Shown here piece after piece: positions 2,512 to 51,741 of a stretch of DNA of 64,000 nt (positions are counted from its first letter, which is position 1; the number at the start of each line of letters is the position of its first letter). The notes below the pieces were generated by a model that saw only the letters and a list, made by a program, of their open reading frames with translations, was not told the origin of the DNA and made no database searches. The translations under genes were made by a program, and so were the position numbers. This DNA comes from a virus (Duplodnaviria; Caudoviricetes), in IMG/VR virus record IMGVR_UViG_3300028591_000073, positions 32,001 to 96,000 of that record, one strand, 5' to 3'.

Positions 2512-3996
2512 ATGACCGATTTTATGATGAGAGAACTGGAATTAGAAAAATATTCCAGTGAATTTGATACATGTATTGCAATTCTTGAATATGCCCAAAA
2601 ATGTAATCTTCTAGAATCTTATTATTCTGAAGGATTATCTCCCATATCTCCAGCTCCCGCTGGTTCACAACCACCAGCTGGTGGTGGAGCAGGTGCCCCC
2701 GCACCAGCACCAGCTGCAGCACCGGCTCCGAATCCAAATGCTCCAGGAAATATTAAACCAACTTCTGGAAACACCATTCCGAGTCCACAGGCTGGTGCTA
2801 CAGGTGCCGGTGCGACATCTGCTCAAACAAAAGTAATGAAACCCTCAGGTGGTAATCCAACACAGAAAAGGAACATTTTCCAAAGAATCTTTGATGCAAT
2901 TATTGGAGTCTTCAAAAAGGTTGGTGAATTTTTCACTGGTAAACAAACAGAGGGAATTGTTGATGAGGCAACACAAGTTGTTGAAAAAGCCAGATCCAGT
3001 GGTATGTCTGAAGATGAATTCATTTCTCAAATGATGACAAATTGGCAGAATAAATCCGGTGGTATGTTCAAAGGACCGATGGATGATTCAACAAGTGGTT
3101 CACAATCTTCAAAACCAACAAATGTAGATACTGGTAAATTGGAGGAATTCTATCGAATCTGGTTCAGAGAAGGAAACATTCCCACCCACATGTCAAAAGA
3201 CAGTGTAAATGCGATGCAAGCTTTGACTGATTTGATTAATCAGATTGCAACAAAGTTAAAGGGATATACAGCACAACAGATTACCGCAGAAGGAAATGGT
3301 ATGATTCAACAATTGAATCAGAGCTCAGAAGTTTTGATGAAAGCATTGAATCAAAATGTACAATCCCCTCCTTCTGTTTGGAAAGCTTATTTCTTTAAGG
3401 CTGGAAGTATGTGCAGAAAAATGAACGATGCATTTTCCAACTTACAGAAGACAATGAATCAATTATATGCTGATCCAGAAAAAGGTCCAGCAGTCGATCA
3501 GGCATTTGGTCAAATGACAGGTCCGATGAAAGCTGTTATGAATGCGGCAAAAATTGTGAATCAAGAAGTGCAAGCAATTCAATTAACTGCTGCTGATGCA
3601 AATTATGCAAAACATAAAGGTGCTGAAGGACAGAGATTGTTTGGCACAAGTGACCATGTGATGTCCAAGGGTAAACAAGACACGATCAAAGCTGGTCAAC
3701 AGAGTTATGAAGAAAAACTTCGCGCATCTGGCGATTACAGTGAGAAAGAAATTCAGCGACTTGTTAAGATGGCAGGTAAAGAATTTGGTAAAGAATATAG
3801 CAACAAATTTGATCAAGCACATGATGAAGCGACTGCTTATTATGACATCAGAAATGGTAAACGTCGTAAAGCTGATCGTAAGGAAAAACAAGCAGCAGAC
3901 TTGGAAGAAAAAGCAAGAAAAGCGCAAGAAGCTGCAGATAGAGCAAAGGCTAAAGCCGATGCATTATCTGCAAGAAAAGCTGCAAAACGTGGTTAA
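2512..3996 (+). CDS. Putative inner-head virion protein (paralog family)
   Basis: RBS AAGGAGG. N-terminal LLE/YSE motifs, Pro/Ala linker, NIFQRIFDAIIGVFKKVGEFF helix, Lys/Ala-rich tail. Confidence 0.6.
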   Translation: MTDFMMRELELEKYSSEFDTCIAILEYAQKCNLLESYYSEGLSPISPAPAGSQPPAGGGAGAPAPAPAAAPAPNPNAPGNIKPTSGNTIPSPQAGATGAGATSAQTKVMKPSGGNPTQKRNIFQRIFDAIIGVFKKVGEFFTGKQTEGIVDEATQVVEKARSSGMSEDEFISQMMTNWQNKSGGMFKGPMDDSTSGSQSSKPTNVDTGKLEEFYRIWFREGNIPTHMSKDSVNAMQALTDLINQIATKLKGYTAQQITAEGNGMIQQLNQSSEVLMKALNQNVQSPPSVWKAYFFKAGSMCRKMNDAFSNLQKTMNQLYADPEKGPAVDQAFGQMTGPMKAVMNAAKIVNQEVQAIQLTAADANYAKHKGAEGQRLFGTSDHVMSKGKQDTIKAGQQSYEEKLRASGDYSEKEIQRLVKMAGKEFGKEYSNKFDQAHDEATAYYDIRNGKRRKADRKEKQAADLEEKARKAQEAADRAKAKADALSARKAAKRG

Positions 3997-46771: not shown

Positions 46772-48748
46772 TTAGCCAGTCCATACGACCTGACAATCTT
46801 CTGGAGCACCCCAAGGAGCACCAGTAATGGAATTCTCTGCTTTATTGATTGTGATTCTCTTAAGATTTGGACAATCTTTAAATGCACCATCCAATCCACC
46901 ATCTATGTCTTCTTGTATTTCCGTAATTCCAGAACCGATTACAACTTCTTCAAGTGCGTCACATGCTTCGAATACACCGGCACCGATGCTGGAGCAATGA
47001 TCTGGAATTGTAACATTTGTTAATGATGGACAATATGCGAATGCACCATTCTTTATCTTAAGATCAGTACCACCACTTTCGAATGTAATGTTCTCCAACC
47101 AGGGATTGTAATTGAAAGCACCATTGTCAATTAATGTCACGGATTTCGGAATTGTAATTTCCGTAAATGCATTATATGTAAATGCAGAAGTATCGATTGT
47201 TTCAACACCATTCTCAAGTGTTAATGTGACAGCAGATACATTACGCATTTCCGGATTTATCACAGTACGACCTCGGAAAGCAGATTGTGTGATATTTTTA
47301 ACACTACCAGGAATTGTGATATGTCGAATAGATGTCGTCTCAAATGCACCTTGTTCTATTGTGGTAAGCTGATTTGACAGAGTGAGTGATTGTAATGATG
47401 TCATATTACTCAACCAACCAGAACCCAATGATCCAGTAAATCCATTGTTCATATGATAGAGAACAATGTTCTTGACAGCCCAGTCTTGAGTACCCCACAT
47501 ATCAGGATAACGTCTGATGAATGCCGTATTTTCATCATTCATACCAGTAGCTGTGTATGTGCAATCATCACCAATCACAACGGAGAACATATTGGTTGGG
47601 TGTGCAACCAGATACGCACACATATCAGAATACAAATCATATGTTGTCAATTCATTTGTTGTCATATTAATGAGATTGATCTTTTCATCATCGATATTAA
47701 GATATGTGATTGTTGCATTCGTAGCACCCCAAGGTGCATTGGAAATTGCTCCTTCTTTATTCAAAACAATGATATTGAGGTCCTCGGCCATATTCCCAAA
47801 CGCATTAGCATGAATTTGTTTGATACTTGGCGGAATCACGAGTGTTTTAACATTTGTACAGAACTGGAATGCAGCTGCTCCATCAATCGATTCCAATGTA
47901 AGTGGGAATTCAATTGATGTAACACCTCTTCTGCCAGAAAAACATTCCGTGGGAATTGATTTAATACCAGTTCCAATCTTAATGGTCTTTGTTGCATCCA
48001 TGATTGCATACATTTCTTCTGCTCTTTCCTCAGTATCAAACTGAGTAGGTCGAGCGACAGCGAAGCATGATGTTCCAAGTGACGTAACAGAATCGGGAAT
48101 GATAATACTTTCAAGTGGACACTCGGCAAATGCAACATTTCCAATGGATTGTAAATTATCATTGAAAATAACAGTTGTCAATTTTTCACATCCACTGAAT
48201 GCAGTATCACCAATAGATTTTAGGTTATCATTCAATTCAACTGTTGTTAGTTGCGCACAGGATGTGAATGTAAGTGCCGGTATTGTTTTCATATTTTTAC
48301 CAAGTTTTACGGAGTCCAATTTTGCCAAACCTTGATATTTGATTGCAATAGTCTCAGATTCATCACCAAACACAATTCGTTTCACATTTGCCAAACTGGT
48401 TGTACGATTAGTAATCTGCATATCCCCAGAGAATACAATTGTGAATTCTTGATCTGCATTCTCAGACAAATCCATATATGCAACTGCATCATCAACTGTG
48501 TCAAAATATTTTATGTCAAAAAAAGTCGATGTCGATTTTGTAGTATTGATGACTGTAACTTTACCATCTCTTGCCAATAATTCTGGATTGACAATTCGCA
48601 TTGGTGTTGGAATGTCTTTTAAAAATGATGCGGCTGGATTCTTTTTAGATGTAGAAGATGCATATGTGTTATTTGATATCAGATCGAGTTTTCTTTCATT
48701 TGATGTTTGTTGAAGACGTGTGCCCCCAACTAAGTCAATTCTAGCCAT
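46772..48748 (-). CDS. BspA-type leucine-rich repeat (LRR_5) protein
   Basis: Repeats such as LKSIGDTAFSGCEKL and two blocks each capped by APWGA. True start is ATG 48748 with GAAAGGAG RBS. Confidence 0.85.
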   Translation of the reverse strand: MARIDLVGGTRLQQTSNERKLDLISNNTYASSTSKKNPAASFLKDIPTPMRIVNPELLARDGKVTVINTTKSTSTFFDIKYFDTVDDAVAYMDLSENADQEFTIVFSGDMQITNRTTSLANVKRIVFGDESETIAIKYQGLAKLDSVKLGKNMKTIPALTFTSCAQLTTVELNDNLKSIGDTAFSGCEKLTTVIFNDNLQSIGNVAFAECPLESIIIPDSVTSLGTSCFAVARPTQFDTEERAEEMYAIMDATKTIKIGTGIKSIPTECFSGRRGVTSIEFPLTLESIDGAAAFQFCTNVKTLVIPPSIKQIHANAFGNMAEDLNIIVLNKEGAISNAPWGATNATITYLNIDDEKINLINMTTNELTTYDLYSDMCAYLVAHPTNMFSVVIGDDCTYTATGMNDENTAFIRRYPDMWGTQDWAVKNIVLYHMNNGFTGSLGSGWLSNMTSLQSLTLSNQLTTIEQGAFETTSIRHITIPGSVKNITQSAFRGRTVINPEMRNVSAVTLTLENGVETIDTSAFTYNAFTEITIPKSVTLIDNGAFNYNPWLENITFESGGTDLKIKNGAFAYCPSLTNVTIPDHCSSIGAGVFEACDALEEVVIGSGITEIQEDIDGGLDGAFKDCPNLKRITINKAENSITGAPWGAPEDCQVVWTG

Positions 48749-48818
48749 ATAAATAGCTCCTTTCTTAAATAAGTTATGAAAACGTTTTATATGGAAGGGG
48801 CCAACGGCCCCTTCATTA

Positions 48819-49811
48819 TTAAGCATCCGTAATTTCATCAAAATAATTGCATTCCAGATTTCCAGCTGCCGCATGCACATGTCCATTCCCATTAAAGTAC
48901 TTTTGACAGATTTCGGCACAATTAAATTGTGAATTGCCATTGGAGTAAAAGGTATATGTCCATTTATCAACACTGCCATCATATGAGAATTTGCACACGA
49001 AATCATATTCAATATACTTATCGCCAAATAATAGAGAATTGCCAATTGGGCAGTTTACAACCCATCCCTTGAATCCATCGATTTCCATTTCAAATCCATT
49101 ATGATTTGCTTGTTCATAAATCGATTTCTGGTATTTCGCAATTCCACGACCAAGTTCTACCAATGAAACAATCTGTTTATAATCGCGCTCATATAACAAC
49201 ATTTCCCACACATCATTGTTCAAGGGTTGTGTATCGAGCGTTCTTAATGCAGTCTCGAAATATCTGGAATTGTCGAATTGATGTGTCCATGTATCGTGAT
49301 CGTTAATATAACGAACGGCATCTGGGACACCATATTCTCTCATACGTCTTTTGTCATTTGGATAAAATGCCAGATGAGTATAATCTTCTGTGAAATCATA
49401 TTCTACTGAATTGGGATTCAACTGCTCATCCATTGTCATACAGGAATAAACATATGTCAGCATACATGCAGAAATATCCACACGATAAAAGTTTGTAACA
49501 CGTTCATACAAAATCTTATCACGTTCACTCAGGTTCTTTTCGAATTCTTTTCCACCAATGTGATGGTCGATATGGATGATATCGCAATCTTTCTTTAAAC
49601 ATTTTCGAATTACTTGCATCACATTTTCATCCAATGCCAAATCCACAATCATAACTCGTTCTTTGTTATGAATGTCTTCTTCATTTAATTCAATGGCTTT
49701 TTGATGTCCATATTCGATAAATGTCTTTGGTTCAAAATCATTTGCAATCTGCATTGCAACAATCGCAGCTGCACAACGTCCATCTGCATCATTGTGATGA
49801 ATACATATCAT
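48819..49811 (-). CDS. DHH-family phosphoesterase
   Basis: HHNDADG, IVD, IDHH and C-terminal GNGHVHAAA motifs. Confidence 0.9.
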   Translation of the reverse strand: MICIHHNDADGRCAAAIVAMQIANDFEPKTFIEYGHQKAIELNEEDIHNKERVMIVDLALDENVMQVIRKCLKKDCDIIHIDHHIGGKEFEKNLSERDKILYERVTNFYRVDISACMLTYVYSCMTMDEQLNPNSVEYDFTEDYTHLAFYPNDKRRMREYGVPDAVRYINDHDTWTHQFDNSRYFETALRTLDTQPLNNDVWEMLLYERDYKQIVSLVELGRGIAKYQKSIYEQANHNGFEMEIDGFKGWVVNCPIGNSLLFGDKYIEYDFVCKFSYDGSVDKWTYTFYSNGNSQFNCAEICQKYFNGNGHVHAAAGNLECNYFDEITDA

Positions 49812-49822
49812 ATGATCACTCC

Positions 49823-50263
49823 TTACTTCTTAAAATGTTTCATTGCATTCTCTTTGAAATCGAGATATCTCTCAGGCGGATATGCAGATTCATTCTTGAT
49901 TGCGTTCTTACGACGAGTACACGTGGATGGTGAATAACCGGTGAATGCTGCAATCTCACGTACACGATATCCCATATCAAATAAGACATTGATTGCCATG
50001 ACTTCATCATCAAATGTTTTGAAATCAAATATCTTAAAACGATATGTGCGATGGTATTGTCTCTTGACAGTTTTGCTGACTCTGGTATATTCCCATATGA
50101 TGAGTTTCCCATCATGTGTTTTTGCACGAACGAATGTCACATCTGTCAATGGATTCGTTACCATCGCAATTTCTCTGATGTCATTGGTATCAATTTCATG
50201 ATTTGCATATAATGCAAGACCAGCATCTACTGCACTTACGATTGTAATTTTTTCTTGTTTCAT
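49823..50263 (-). CDS. Helix-turn-helix DNA-binding protein
   Basis: GYRVREIAAFTGYSPSTCTRR HTH motif. Likely start is ATG 50263; the ORF-track extension runs through the RNA repeat. Confidence 0.7.
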   Translation of the reverse strand: MKQEKITIVSAVDAGLALYANHEIDTNDIREIAMVTNPLTDVTFVRAKTHDGKLIIWEYTRVSKTVKRQYHRTYRFKIFDFKTFDDEVMAINVLFDMGYRVREIAAFTGYSPSTCTRRKNAIKNESAYPPERYLDFKENAMKHFKK

Positions 50264-50274
50264 AATGTTAATCC

Positions 50275-50398
50275 TGACATATTGTTTCCTACCCATAAGA
50301 ACTAATGTTCTTGGCGATAGGCTCATACCGTGTGTCGCCACGGCTGTTTATATTCACGAATCAAGTAAGTCAGGAACAACCTACTTTCTTAAATTATT
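50275..50398 (-). ncRNA. TnpB omegaRNA-like scaffold, copy A, with shared 5' hairpin segment
   Basis: CCGUG-GCGACA-CACGG hairpin, UAUGAG, CCUAUC/GGUAGG stem enclosing AAGAAC-AUUA-GUUCUU, and terminal UGUCA complementary to loop GACA. Covaries with copy B and lies just 3' of a tnpB remnant. Confidence 0.6.
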
Positions 50399-50518
50399 TT
50401 ACGACATACAAATGTCCTTGATTGTGAATTTTCTCATACTCCAAGAGTTTATTTGTCTTAATGCTTCATTACGTAGATTGATAGCAGCATTATAATCTCT
50501 ATCAATTACTAATCCACT
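50399..50518 (-). pseudogene. tnpB: tnpB 3'-end remnant (RuvC-III) followed by a degenerate scaffold copy
   Basis: Translates SGLVIDRDYNAAINLRNEALRQI, matching the CG..xDRDxNAAxN C-terminal motif of IS200/IS605/IS607 TnpB. No start codon or remainder of the gene. Confidence 0.8.
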
Positions 50519-50521
50519 TTC

Positions 50522-50641
50522 CGACAATGTTTCTTACCCAAGGACACCATTGTGTTCAGACAGTAAGCTCATACCCAGTGTCGCCTGGGCTGTTTATCAC
50601 ACATTAAGTAAGTCAGGAGTTCCTCACTTTCTTAAATTATT
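50522..50641 (-). ncRNA. TnpB omegaRNA-like scaffold, copy B
   Basis: CCCAG-GCGACA-CUGGG, UAUGAG, CUUACU/GGUAAG stem and terminal UGUCG. Compensatory changes relative to copy A. Confidence 0.6.
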
Positions 50642-50652
50642 AAATCCTCCAT

Positions 50653-51741
50653 TTATAGCCCAAAAAAATAATAACGCCACATTTCTTTTACGTATGATTC
50701 ACCCATCGAACTCAGGTATCTCAAATCTTCAATAAACTGTTTCTCCAATTGCTCCTTATCAGAACCCCTTTTATCAAATAACATAGCAAGCAAGTCCTCA
50801 ATACACATTTGTTCAATTTCTGGTTCATCTTTCACATCTTCATCAAGGTCCATAGCCGCTGTCATCTTGTCAATCTTTTCTTTTTCTTTAGATTTCAGAT
50901 ATTCTTCCTCCATTTTTGAGAACACATTACACAGTTCATCGAAAGCTTCATTGATAGATTTCTTATCCTCTTTGTAAGATTTTTTATTATTCTCCATCTC
51001 ATCCAATACGTTGGAACCTTGTGCTTTTCCGACCTTGGTTGAGACATGGAAAATGCTATCGATTCTGGTTTTGTGGTTGATGTAGAAGTCTTTATCATAT
51101 TCGATGTCTTCAAACAAAGGAAGCATCTTCTTACGGAATTCCAGCAGAAGTGCAATTGCGATTTCTCTAATATTCGGATGTGCAGAAGAAGCACATCTGA
51201 GTTCAAAGAAATGTCTCCATGCACGAATGTCCATGGTGACTTTCATATTTACTTTCAGTGCTTGGGGAAGTACTGCCCTGGCTTCCTGAGGTTTTGCACC
51301 ATTCTTGATAAGCTGATTATATGCGTAAGCAGCAGTTTCACAAGCTTCTTGGAAAATCTTATAACGGATATCCAAGGCTTTTCCATCAGGGAATACCTTT
51401 GCATTTTTATCATATTCTACAGGAATAATGAATTCAACACCTTTAGAATAGTTGACATAACGTGTGGACTCAACGGAATATCCAACACCAATTCTATGGC
51501 GTGTCCATTCTGCAAGCACATCACGTGACGTAATCACATCTACTGTGACAGATTGGTGTTCCAATACGGATGTGTGTCCACTCTTGATAATTCCACGAAG
51601 GAAATCAGCCGTCGGTTTTGTATGTTGCTTGAATTCAGACTGGTAACAGGTCCTTGCACATTTTTCCAGATTTCTCATAATGTGAAAACCGTTTACATCA
51701 TCAACAAACTGGGCACTTGGGGTAATTAATTCAATACTCAT
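50653..51741 (-). CDS. thyX: FAD-dependent thymidylate synthase with C-terminal acidic extension
   Basis: HTSVLEH, RHRxxxxSVESTRY, QEARAVLP, WRHFFELR and AHPNIR motifs. Confidence 0.95.
   Translation of the reverse strand: MSIELITPSAQFVDDVNGFHIMRNLEKCARTCYQSEFKQHTKPTADFLRGIIKSGHTSVLEHQSVTVDVITSRDVLAEWTRHRIGVGYSVESTRYVNYSKGVEFIIPVEYDKNAKVFPDGKALDIRYKIFQEACETAAYAYNQLIKNGAKPQEARAVLPQALKVNMKVTMDIRAWRHFFELRCASSAHPNIREIAIALLLEFRKKMLPLFEDIEYDKDFYINHKTRIDSIFHVSTKVGKAQGSNVLDEMENNKKSYKEDKKSINEAFDELCNVFSKMEEEYLKSKEKEKIDKMTAAMDLDEDVKDEPEIEQMCIEDLLAMLFDKRGSDKEQLEKQFIEDLRYLSSMGESYVKEMWRYYFFGL

What the first reader, a model, noticed from the sequence alone, without database searches (positions are those of the whole stretch)
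50273..50650. Tandem TnpB omegaRNA-like scaffolds with covariation, orphaned from their nuclease
Seen: two ~120-nt imperfect direct repeats on the minus strand (50522-50641 and 50275-50398) whose differences preserve pairing. The stems are CCCAG/CUGGG vs CCGUG/CACGG around an invariant GCGACA loop, CUUACU/GGUAAG vs CCUAUC/GGUAGG, and AAGUGAG vs AAGUAGG against CUUACUU. G-U pairs fix the strand. Each copy ends UGUC(G/A), complementary to loop GACA (pseudoknot). Between them lies a TnpB RuvC-III tail (GLVIDRDYNAAINLRNEA), followed by a third, deleted copy keeping AUAAAC..GUAUGAG..CAAGGACAUU..UAUGUCG. Established: TnpB omegaRNAs start at the tnpB 3' end, close with a pseudoknot, and use the next ~16-20 nt as guide. 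Inference: the TnpA-binding right-end hairpin appears absent. These may therefore be domesticated guide scaffolds (a mini guide array for a TnpB/TldR encoded elsewhere) or non-autonomous IS607/IS1341-type elements. Putative guides are GAAAGUGGAUUAGUAAUUGA, which is itself tnpB sequence and so possibly anti-transposon, and GGAUUAACAUUAUGAAACAA, which covers the HTH gene start.
Basis: partly seen in the sequence, partly recalled or inferred. Interest (0 to 1): 0.85.

Follow-up and report, generated by a model that had tools for sequence, protein, structure and literature searches.

The report
Spare TnpB guide-RNA scaffolds in phage
A 373-base insert in a sheep-gut jumbo phage holds two complete guide-RNA scaffolds and the last piece of a TnpB nuclease gene. 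The same phage encodes an intact TnpB 52 kb away, so this is a gene-less leftover of a selfish "homing" element, a kind already known, and not a new system.

Summary
The core observation holds. Two ~125-nt minus-strand repeats, A (50518-50642) and B (50274-50398), flank a 119-nt tnpB 3' remnant, and their differences keep the base pairs.

They are TnpB omegaRNA (right-end) modules:
- The same scaffold directly follows an intact, catalytically complete 416-aa TnpB 52 kb away in this 294.5-kb phage.
- A covariance model built from the copies hits the 3' end of tnpB in 13 relatives.
- The loop/3'-end pseudoknot covaries (GACA:UGUC versus GAAC:GUUC), as in ISDra2.

The block is a 373-bp insert bounded by a 6-nt AGGATT repeat. 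Two sister phages and a near-identical strain have the empty site.

Guide B's first 16 nt match one sister's empty site exactly. I read the insert as a protein-less derivative of TnpA-less TnpB homing elements that may still home using TnpB in trans. This is inferred, not shown.

The claimed third, deleted copy is not above chance. The anti-transposon reading of guide A is weak.

Orphan scaffolds recur in two other jumbo-phage contigs that carry tnpB relatives. Standalone omegaRNAs acting in trans are published, and this scan has already reported similar phage cases on other DNA. Interest is therefore modest.

A side observation is short flank duplications at the element ends, often next to a GGAG ribosome-binding site.

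The parts
50643..50648 (-). Left copy of the 6-nt flank repeat AGGATT, which is part of the resident GGAGGA ribosome-binding site after the thyX stop
   Evidence: Empty sites in L009 and L010 read ATGGAGGATT(A/G)A... The X5 contig joins 50269 to 50643 with 6 letters fitting both sides. Sequence verified.
50518..50642 (-). Scaffold A, a complete compact omegaRNA module. The stem-1 hairpin is at 50574-50589 with loop GACA at 50579-50582. The pseudoknot 3' strand UGUC is at 50523-50526. The right end reads ..UUGUCGG(AAA).
   Evidence: Covariance model hit of 132.8 bits, E 6e-23. It is 84% identical to the scaffold behind the intact tnpB. A-like contigs in X3 and X4 stop matching exactly at 50518.
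50503..50520 (-). Putative guide A (AAAGUGGAUUAGUAAUUG). It reads into the tnpB remnant, in the zinc-finger CGL(T/V)ID codons.
   Evidence: It lies next to the scaffold end by the pseudoknot register. It has 2-4 mismatches to the family's tnpB genes, whose 5' context is TTCAT. An RNA-library contig ends at 50503, which is not proof of an RNA end.
50399..50517 (-). tnpB 3' remnant of 39 codons plus the stop, including RuvC-III DRDYNAAINL. It is still in frame.
   Evidence: tblastn gives 79% identity to residues 377-415 of the intact TnpB. It is 89% nucleotide-identical to that gene's tail. Intact-tnpB contigs match from 50517.
50274..50398 (-). Scaffold B, a complete omegaRNA module. The stem-1 hairpin is at 50328-50343 with loop GACA at 50333-50336. 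UGUC is at 50276-50279. The right end reads ..AUAUGUCAG.
   Evidence: Covariance model hit of 149 bits, E 5e-26. All stems are paired, with compensatory changes relative to A and C. The right-end boundary is fixed by the empty sites.
50258..50273 (-). Putative guide B (GAUUAACAUUAUGAAA). It covers the spacer and start codon of the HTH gene.
   Evidence: It matches the uninterrupted site of sister phage L009 16/16, where it is preceded by TGGAG. L010 has 3 mismatches in 20.
50270..50275 (-). Right copy of the AGGATT repeat. Its first two bases (AG) are the last two of the right end, and it re-creates an AGGA ribosome-binding site 10 nt before the HTH start codon.
50653..51741 (-). Upstream gene, a flavin-dependent thymidylate synthase (ThyX). 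It is on the same strand, with no terminator-like site between it and the insert.
   Evidence: Pfam Thy1, E 1.8e-47. Terminator scan.
49823..50263 (-). Downstream gene, a small protein with a weak helix-turn-helix match. Its start region is the target of guide B.
   Evidence: ORF list. Pfam HTH_38 below threshold. The gene is conserved in L009 and L010.

Best explanation
The 373-bp block (50270-50642) is a protein-less derivative of the TnpA-less, TnpB-only (IS1341-type) elements that circulate among ruminant-gut jumbo phages.

Composition. It holds two right-end modules from two different element lineages, scaffolds A and B. They are joined through the last 119 nt of a tnpB gene. Each module is a full compact omegaRNA scaffold with three parts:
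- a stem-1 hairpin whose GACA loop pairs with UGUC just before the guide (a pseudoknot);
- a nested stem 2/3;
- the guide, which is the DNA that follows the right end.

Proposed mechanism.
- The block lies on the same strand as thyX and the HTH gene with no terminator between them, so it is probably transcribed with them (inferred).
- The intact TnpB at 135 kb carries an 81-84% identical scaffold, so it could process and load these RNAs in trans (inferred from published trans activity of standalone omegaRNAs).
- Guide B equals the uninterrupted thyX/HTH junction of sister phages. TnpB with omegaRNA B would therefore cut insert-free genomes in a mixed infection, and recombination would copy the insert in. 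That is non-autonomous homing.
- Guide A is a by-product of the rearrangement that fused A to the tnpB remnant, and probably has no target of its own.

Shown: the identity, anatomy, insertion polymorphism and match of guide B. Not shown: transcription, loading and cutting.
For: - The same scaffold sits directly 3' of an intact 416-aa TnpB in the same genome. That TnpB has invariant D218/E302/D385 and a zinc finger, and is related to ISDra2 TnpB.
- Model R1 hits lie just 3' of tnpB in 13 of 14 cases among relatives. On that alignment, 92.6% of cells are paired and 29 of 36 pairs change on both sides. No shuffle out of 500 reaches these values, and slid controls give 33-44% paired.
- The pseudoknot covaries and matches the ISDra2 architecture.
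- Empty sites exist in L009 and L010 and in a near-identical strain.
- Guide B matches the L009 empty site 16/16.
- The genome holds no Y1 or serine TnpA.
- Gene-less derivatives recur in G005 and G006. Two of them are 90% identical mini-elements at different loci.
- Standalone omegaRNAs work in trans (PMC10691335), and PATEs encode omegaRNAs (PMC10055086).
- The A|tail junction is present, without a difference, in an RNA library of another study.
Against: - There is no direct evidence of a discrete RNA, of loading by TnpB, or of cleavage.
- The TAM of this TnpB is unknown, so the cuttability of the empty site is inferred only from a recurrent GGAG 5' of the sites.
- Intact stems do not prove selection here. 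The insert is a recent polymorphism, and the compensatory changes may predate the loss of tnpB.
- How A came to sit exactly at the left junction without any left end is unexplained.
- Scaffold A has one A-C mismatch, a 2-nt deletion before the pseudoknot strand, and an unusual end (GUCGGAAA).
- An X3 contig shows the thyX junction plus A followed by unrelated sequence, which I could not place.
Confidence: 0.55

Rival explanations
1. Inert debris. The block is only the decayed remains of two TnpB elements, nested or adjacent, reduced by deletions. The scaffolds are not loaded or used. The insert persists only because it is harmless, since the AGGATT repeat keeps a ribosome-binding site for the HTH gene.
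For: - A truncated tnpB lies between the scaffolds.
- A and B are only 75% identical, so they come from two separate elements.
- Scaffold A has small defects.
- Guide A points at a remnant.
- Insert-free strains coexist with the insert.
- The intact stems can be explained by recency.
Against: - Both scaffolds are complete from stem 1 to the pseudoknot, whereas the protein-coding part is almost wholly gone.
- The same retention bias is seen in G005 and G006, where 4 orphans stand beside 3 intact copies and a mini-element exists in two copies.
- A compatible TnpB is present in the genome.
- Guide B matches a real sister-phage site exactly.
Confidence: 0.32
2. Domesticated multi-guide set. The phage keeps orphan scaffolds as a small array of extra guides for its single TnpB. 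It would use them to exclude competing phages or rival tnpB elements rather than to spread the insert itself.
For: - There is one TnpB and three scaffolds with three different guides in one genome.
- Guide A lies on a conserved tnpB segment.
- An earlier scan note reports a phage-type promoter before the intact tnpB (not checked by me).
- Phage-borne solo guides are known for other systems (bioRxiv 10.64898/2026.10.15.759431, abstract only).
Against: - By construction the guides are only the local flanks.
- The insert is absent from close strains, so it is not a fixed trait.
- There is no regular array structure.
- Guide A mismatches its only candidate targets, and their 5' context differs from the other sites.
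Confidence: 0.1
3. Not a guide RNA. The repeats would be another kind of structured element, such as a 5'-UTR regulator of the HTH gene, a transcription terminator or an RNA stability element, duplicated in tandem.
For: - The position is in an intergenic leader.
- There is no Rfam family match.
- The plus-strand scan flags the stem-1 hairpins as terminator-like.
Against: - The module follows tnpB in this genome and in 13 relatives.
- The G-U pairs fix the minus strand.
- The terminator-like calls are on the non-coding plus strand.
- Sister phages express the same operon without the element.
Confidence: 0.03

Closest known systems
ISDra2 TnpB with its omegaRNA/reRNA (IS200/IS605 family; PDB 8bf8, 8exa, 8h1j; PMC10097598, PMC8612924)
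   Same: - The TnpB is a clear homologue (E 6e-46).
- The RNA lies at the tnpB 3' end.
- The stem-1 loop pairs with the 3-4 nt just before the guide to form a pseudoknot.
- There is a nested stem 2/3.
- The guide is the flank beyond the right end.
   Different: - There is no TnpA in the genome.
- This subfamily lacks stem 4, which more distant relatives keep with the ISDra2-like UUUA loop.
- The core is only about 75 nt, plus an optional 5' hairpin.
- Several elements are bounded by short flank duplications.
- The sites follow GGAG rather than TTGAT.
Standalone omegaRNAs and PATE-like protein-less IS200/IS605 derivatives (Altae-Tran et al. 2021 as summarised in PMC10691335; Meers et al., PMC10055086)
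   Same: - These are gene-less copies that keep the omegaRNA.
- They sit in the same genome as an effector-bearing copy.
- They are reported to act in trans with a compatible effector.
   Different: - Those were described in bacteria with conserved left and right ends that TnpA mobilises.
- Here the host is a jumbo phage with no TnpA.
- The window copy has no left end at all.
- Two scaffolds lie in tandem around a tnpB stub.
Free-standing homing endonuclease genes of T-even phages (intronless homing) and 'transposon non-restorative homing' (review PMC13565253)
   Same: - The proposed spread works by cutting the insert-free allele of a co-infecting relative and copying by recombination.
- The insert sits between conserved genes.
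- Presence/absence polymorphism exists among close strains.
   Different: - Target recognition would be by RNA guide.
- The nuclease would be supplied from another locus of the same genome.
TldR (nuclease-dead TnpB-like repressors) with their guide RNAs (PMC10705468)
   Same: It is a TnpB-derived protein with an adjacent or nearby guide RNA, some of them on phages, and its guides lie over promoter or start regions.
   Different: The TnpB here keeps all three RuvC acidic residues, and the guides are only the insertion flanks.
Phage-borne solo guides of other systems (VIPR solo vrRNAs, bioRxiv 10.64898/2026.10.15.759431; viral sgRNAs, bioRxiv 10.64898/2026.06.01.729453)
   Same: Both are orphan guide RNAs carried by phages that depend on an effector encoded elsewhere.
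   Different: The effector families are unrelated, and those guides are reported to target competitors or to redirect the effector. I read only the abstracts.

Membership tests
TnpB omegaRNA (right-end RNA) | Encoded at or overlapping the 3' end of tnpB, on the same strand | tested here: met
   Copy C follows the intact tnpB stop codon directly. B follows a tnpB 3' remnant. Model hits lie just 3' of tnpB in 13 relatives. A has no tnpB upstream in the window, but A-type scaffolds follow tnpB tails in other samples (joint).
TnpB omegaRNA (right-end RNA) | Conserved secondary structure, with a pseudoknot between the stem-1 loop and the nucleotides just 5' of the guide | tested here: met
   On the relatives' alignment, 92.6% of cells are paired and 29 of 36 pairs change on both sides. 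Two pseudoknot pairs switch together, GACA:UGUC versus GAAC:GUUC. The geometry is as in ISDra2.
TnpB omegaRNA (right-end RNA) | The scaffold ends at the element's right boundary, and the guide is the adjacent flank that matches the empty site | tested here: met
   For B, the empty sites in L009, L010 and X5 place the boundary after ..GUCAG, and the guide matches L009 16/16. For A, the boundary is at 50518-50521 but the flank is a tnpB remnant.
TnpB omegaRNA (right-end RNA) | Bound and processed by TnpB, and directs TAM-dependent DNA cleavage | not testable with these tools
   This needs RIP-seq or interference assays. The only RNA hint is one contig from an RNA library.
TnpB omegaRNA (right-end RNA) | Match to a curated RNA family model | tested here: inconclusive
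   There is no Rfam 15 hit at E up to 10. I do not know whether Rfam holds a model for this omegaRNA type.
Canonical IS200/IS605 transposon | Y1 TnpA transposase in the element, or in the genome to act in trans | tested here: not met
   PF01797 gives no match in the complete 294.5-kb genome, and the controls ring. The host genome is unknown, so a host TnpA cannot be excluded.
Canonical IS200/IS605 transposon | Conserved left-end and right-end hairpins, and no target duplication | tested here: not met
   - The left ends are 13-105 nt long and poorly conserved between elements with about 80% identical TnpB.
- The right-end stem 4 is absent.
- Flank duplications are seen at the window insert (6 nt), at L254 (7-9 nt, 4/2000 shuffles) and at L015 (121 nt).
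IS607-type element | Serine recombinase TnpA | tested here: not met
   PF00239 gives no match in the genome.
PATE / MITE-like non-autonomous IS605 derivative | Both transposon ends retained around a gene-less core | tested here: not met
   The window insert has two right ends and no left end. By contrast, mini-element L263 in G006 keeps 72-78 nt of left end plus the right end.
TldR (nuclease-dead TnpB-like repressor) system | Loss of the RuvC catalytic residues | tested here: not met
   D218, E302 and D385 are invariant across 34 family members, including this genome's TnpB.
CRISPR-like array | Short regular repeats that alternate with spacers of similar length | tested here: not met
   There are two 125-nt scaffolds that are 75% identical, separated by a 119-nt gene remnant.

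The most novel reading that the evidence does not exclude
Jumbo phages of the ruminant gut keep more omegaRNA scaffolds than tnpB genes: in the three genomes I examined, 6 gene-less scaffolds stand beside 4 scaffolds still attached to an intact tnpB. One TnpB would therefore be armed in trans with several guides. These gene-less modules would spread between co-infecting phages by RNA-guided cutting of ribosome-binding-site-proximal targets (a GGAG-type TAM). Imprecise repair would leave short flank duplications. That would be a TnpA-independent, virus-borne, multi-guide stage between a transposon omegaRNA and a CRISPR-like array.
Probability: 0.2. Interest if true: 0.7.

Novelty: new variant of a known kind. 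Interest (0 to 1): 0.4.

Why it matters
If guide B really works with the distant TnpB, this is a natural case of a single RNA-guided nuclease in a virus that serves several gene-less guide modules. Those modules would parasitise it to home into sister phages. That bears on how TnpB elements survive without a transposase, and on how multi-guide (CRISPR-like) arrangements could start.

Two practical by-products follow. The subfamily offers a naturally minimal omegaRNA, with an approximately 75-nt core and no stem 4. It may also have an unusual GGAG-type target motif.

As it stands, the finding mainly adds a well-documented phage example to a published phenomenon, one that this scan has also met several times on other genomes.

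Tried and rejected
- Rfam gave no match at the repeats, either over 3 kb at E up to 10 or over the whole window at gathering thresholds.
- blastn of the block against 50,697 phage records gave no match.
- A single-protein scan of viral contigs with TnpB found only one relative. The profile scan worked better.
- I looked for relatives of the gene upstream of the intact tnpB to find its empty site. None were found. The downstream gene gave only distant relatives, and one contig was cut inside the gene.
- A DNA pattern scan of the metagenome and viral collections with a 15-base scaffold motif returned nearly all chance hits. Only L184 is a true copy.
- Two contig look-ups returned no DNA.
- The 'third deleted copy' was rejected.
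- I tried to infer the TAM from flanks. GGAG recurs, but L014, L253 and L015 do not fit, so I left it as a hypothesis.
- The 5-nt repeats at own_C, L014 and L253 are not significant on their own.
- RNA evidence is a single 233-nt contig from one metatranscriptome covering 50503-50735. The rest of the stretch has no exact cover in that run, and contigs cannot show ends or levels. I do not count it as proof of transcription or of a 3' end.
- I could not reconstruct the steps that produced A-tail-B. Nested insertion plus deletions, tandem insertion plus deletions, and recombination between elements all remain open.
- Complex prediction and structure prediction were not used, because they cannot address RNA loading.

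Full report
**What is there**

On the minus strand, the order downstream of the thyX stop codon (50653-50655) is as follows.
- The resident ribosome-binding site ATGGAGGATT.
- Scaffold A (50518-50642).
- The last 39 codons plus stop of a tnpB gene (50399-50517).
- Scaffold B (50274-50398).
- GATTAACATT, followed by the ATG of a small gene with a weak helix-turn-helix match.

The repeat finder recovers the two copies. A is 75% identical to B. Each is 81-84% identical to a third copy, C.

The window is bases 32001-96000 of a 294,548-bp virus record that CheckV rates complete. Runs from sheep and bovine gut metagenomes hold the sequence.

**The key outside fact**

The same genome carries an intact 416-aa TnpB at G000:C1:135105-136352 on the minus strand.
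- Pfam finds HTH_OrfB_IS605, OrfB_IS605 and Cas12f1-like_TNB.
- D218, E302 and D385 and the CxxC..CxxC zinc finger are invariant across 34 family members.
- It is related to ISDra2 TnpB, E 6e-46.

Its stop codon is followed at once by copy C of the scaffold. C ends ..AUAUGUCAG, 8 nt before the start codon of the next gene. A covariance model built from A, B and C finds exactly these three copies in the genome. The genome has no Y1 transposase and no serine recombinase.

**Is it an omegaRNA?**

Three lines of evidence say yes.

1. *Covariation among the three copies.* They give 36 predicted pairs, 7 with changes on both sides. Several G-U pairs fix the strand.
2. *Association with tnpB.* In 83 loci of relatives, 13 of the 14 model hits lie just 3' of the tnpB reading frame on its strand. 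This holds down to about 33% protein identity. On that alignment 92.6% of cells pair and 29 of 36 pairs change on both sides. No shuffle out of 500 reaches this, and slid controls pair at 33-44%. The alignment was fitted to the model, which inflates these figures somewhat.
3. *Pseudoknot.* The stem-1 loop GACA and the UGUC that lies 2 nt before the right end switch together to GAAC and GUUC in L087, L003, L058 and L068.

This is the ISDra2 layout, where nucleotides -5 to -3 pair with the stem-1 loop (PMC10097598).

The more distant relatives also have a stem 4 with a UUUA loop, as ISDra2 does. The subfamily of this genome lacks stem 4. Its core is about 75 nt, plus an optional 5' hairpin that L253 and L015 lack.

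**The block is an insertion**

Sister phages L009 and L010 (ThyX 79-80% identical) read thyX..ATGGAGGATT(A/G)A(C/T)ATTATGAAA..HTH with nothing between.

A 4.7-kb contig of a near-identical strain in another sheep-gut run joins 50269 to 50643. It skips 373 bases, with 6 letters fitting both sides. The insert is thus a strain-level polymorphism bounded by the repeat AGGATT (50643-50648 and 50270-50275).

Because of that repeat, the HTH gene keeps an AGGA ribosome-binding site 10 nt before its ATG.

**Guides**

By the right-end boundary and the pseudoknot register, guide B starts at 50273. Its first 16 nt match the L009 empty site exactly, where TGGAG precedes it.

Guide A starts at 50520, or at 50517 if AAA belongs to the end. 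It reads into the tnpB remnant. Against the tnpB genes of the family, including this genome's own, it has 2-4 mismatches, and the 5' context there is TTCAT. The 'anti-transposon' idea is therefore weak.

A-like scaffolds with 3 differences occur in other samples. They stop matching exactly at 50518, and intact tnpB contigs match the remnant from 50517. The A|remnant junction is therefore sharp. That junction is present without a difference in a 233-nt contig of an RNA library from another study (50503-50735). This shows that the composite exists elsewhere. It does not prove transcription or an RNA end.

**How it most likely works**

No terminator-like site lies between thyX and the HTH gene on the minus strand, so read-through transcription of both scaffolds is plausible.

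Published work reports that standalone omegaRNAs function in trans with compatible effectors (PMC10691335, citing Altae-Tran et al. 2021). It also reports that PATE-like elements encode omegaRNAs that need TnpB from another element (PMC10055086).

I therefore read the block as a non-autonomous derivative. With TnpB from the 135-kb locus, omegaRNA B would cut insert-free sister genomes during mixed infection, and the insert would be copied in by recombination. The 2026 review PMC13565253 calls this route 'non-restorative homing' and notes it as theoretically possible for co-infecting phages.

The steps from transcription onward are inferred. The main rival is inert debris.

**Recurrence**

Two other jumbo-phage contigs that carry tnpB relatives show the same bias towards keeping the scaffold.
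- G005 (258 kb) has one intact element and two orphans. One orphan is an internal-deletion derivative.
- G006 (240 kb) has two intact elements and two gene-less mini-elements. These are 90% identical to each other and sit at different loci. One retains 72-78 nt of the left end.

Earlier notes of this scan describe similar one-TnpB-plus-solo-scaffold phages on other DNA. I did not check those. One of them gave me the lead to the published statement on standalone omegaRNAs, which I then read myself.

**What does not hold or stays open**

- The 'third, deleted copy' in the tnpB tail is not above chance.
- The origin of the A-remnant-B arrangement is unresolved. A and B stem from different lineages. 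A begins exactly at the left junction with no left end. An X3 contig shows that junction plus A followed by unrelated sequence.
- The TAM is unknown.

**Side observation**

Several elements of this clade are bounded by a direct repeat of flank sequence that starts right after the right end ..GUCAG.

| Element | Repeat |
|---|---|
| Window insert | AGGATT |
| L259 | AGGATT |
| L254 / L255 | (AG)GAGCGTT |
| L256 | (AG)ATGATCA |
| L257 | (AG)GAAAA |
| L263 | (AG)GAAA |
| L015 | 121 nt, re-creating the 3' end of the upstream gene |

Only some of these repeats are significant on their own, and L261 and L258 show none. In most of these sites the left flank ends in GGAG, the ribosome-binding site of the next phage gene. 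IS200/IS605 elements are described as making no target duplication (PMC13565253).

Imprecise processing of the left break end during homing, or integration through short homology, could explain the repeats. I did not test either.

**Verdict**

The function as trans-acting guides is plausible but untested. This is a new variant of a known kind, of modest interest.

Noticed in passing
window 50270-50275 and 50643-50648; L254 about 1990-2000 and about 3415-3425; L256; L015 2860-2981 and 4314-4434; L257, L259, L263: Elements of this TnpB clade are often bounded by a direct repeat of flank sequence that begins right after the right end ..GUCAG. The repeat is 4-9 nt in most cases and 121 nt in L015, where it duplicates the last 39 codons of the upstream gene at about 88% identity. 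IS200/IS605 and IS607 elements are described as making no target duplication. L261 and L258 show no repeat, and the 5-nt cases are not significant alone.
   Followed up: partly
window 50643-50652; L004 (own_C left junction); L256, L254, L257, L259, L261, L263: The left flank ends in GGAG, the Shine-Dalgarno core of the next phage gene, at most sites. The right end CAG plus the repeat often re-creates AGGA(G). This suggests either a GGAG-type TAM or selection for harmless sites. L014, L253 and L015 do not fit.
   Followed up: partly
L087, L003, L058, L068, L023, L028 (3' of tnpB) versus window A/B, L014-L017: Distant relatives have an extra hairpin (stem 4, often with a UUUA loop as in ISDra2) between stem 2/3 and the pseudoknot strand. 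The subfamily of this genome has only about 8 nt there, which makes it a naturally minimised omegaRNA.
   Followed up: partly
L259 (G006:C1:158481-158603) and L263 (G006:C1:27335-27466): These are two gene-less mini-elements of about 300 nt, 90% identical over 269 nt, at different loci of one 240-kb phage. Each holds the last roughly 24 nt of tnpB, the scaffold, and a shared stretch of about 80 nt with an inverted repeat (CACAAATTAA..TTAATTTGTG) that is absent from the intact elements. L263 also keeps 72-78 nt of left end.
   Followed up: partly
L262 (G005:C1:35905-36240): This is a tnpB internal-deletion derivative. The reading frame runs to about ..SITKMYDVI and then jumps straight into the scaffold. 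One TGA lies inside the match.
   Followed up: no
window 50518-50653 as seen in run X3 (record 13): A contig with 3 differences covers the thyX-side junction and scaffold A, then continues (on the minus strand) with TATGATGAAGATGAAAAAGGAATGAATGAG instead of the tnpB remnant. This may be another allele of the locus or an A-type element elsewhere. The continuation is not found in this genome or in any fetched locus.
   Followed up: partly
window 50653-51741: ThyX is 362 aa, but the Thy1 domain ends near residue 206. The acidic, lysine-rich C-terminal extension is conserved to about residue 346 in sister phages and then diverges just before the insertion site.
   Followed up: no
window 46772-49045 (minus) and 48819-49811 (minus): A large ORF (757 aa in the ORF list) has many repeats of the kind AF..C..L..I.IP.SV..IG, which by eye resemble BspA-type leucine-rich repeats. 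Its 5' end overlaps a 330-aa ORF with DHH-like motifs (HHNDADG..DHH), so its real start is probably further downstream. Both are by-eye readings only.
   Followed up: no
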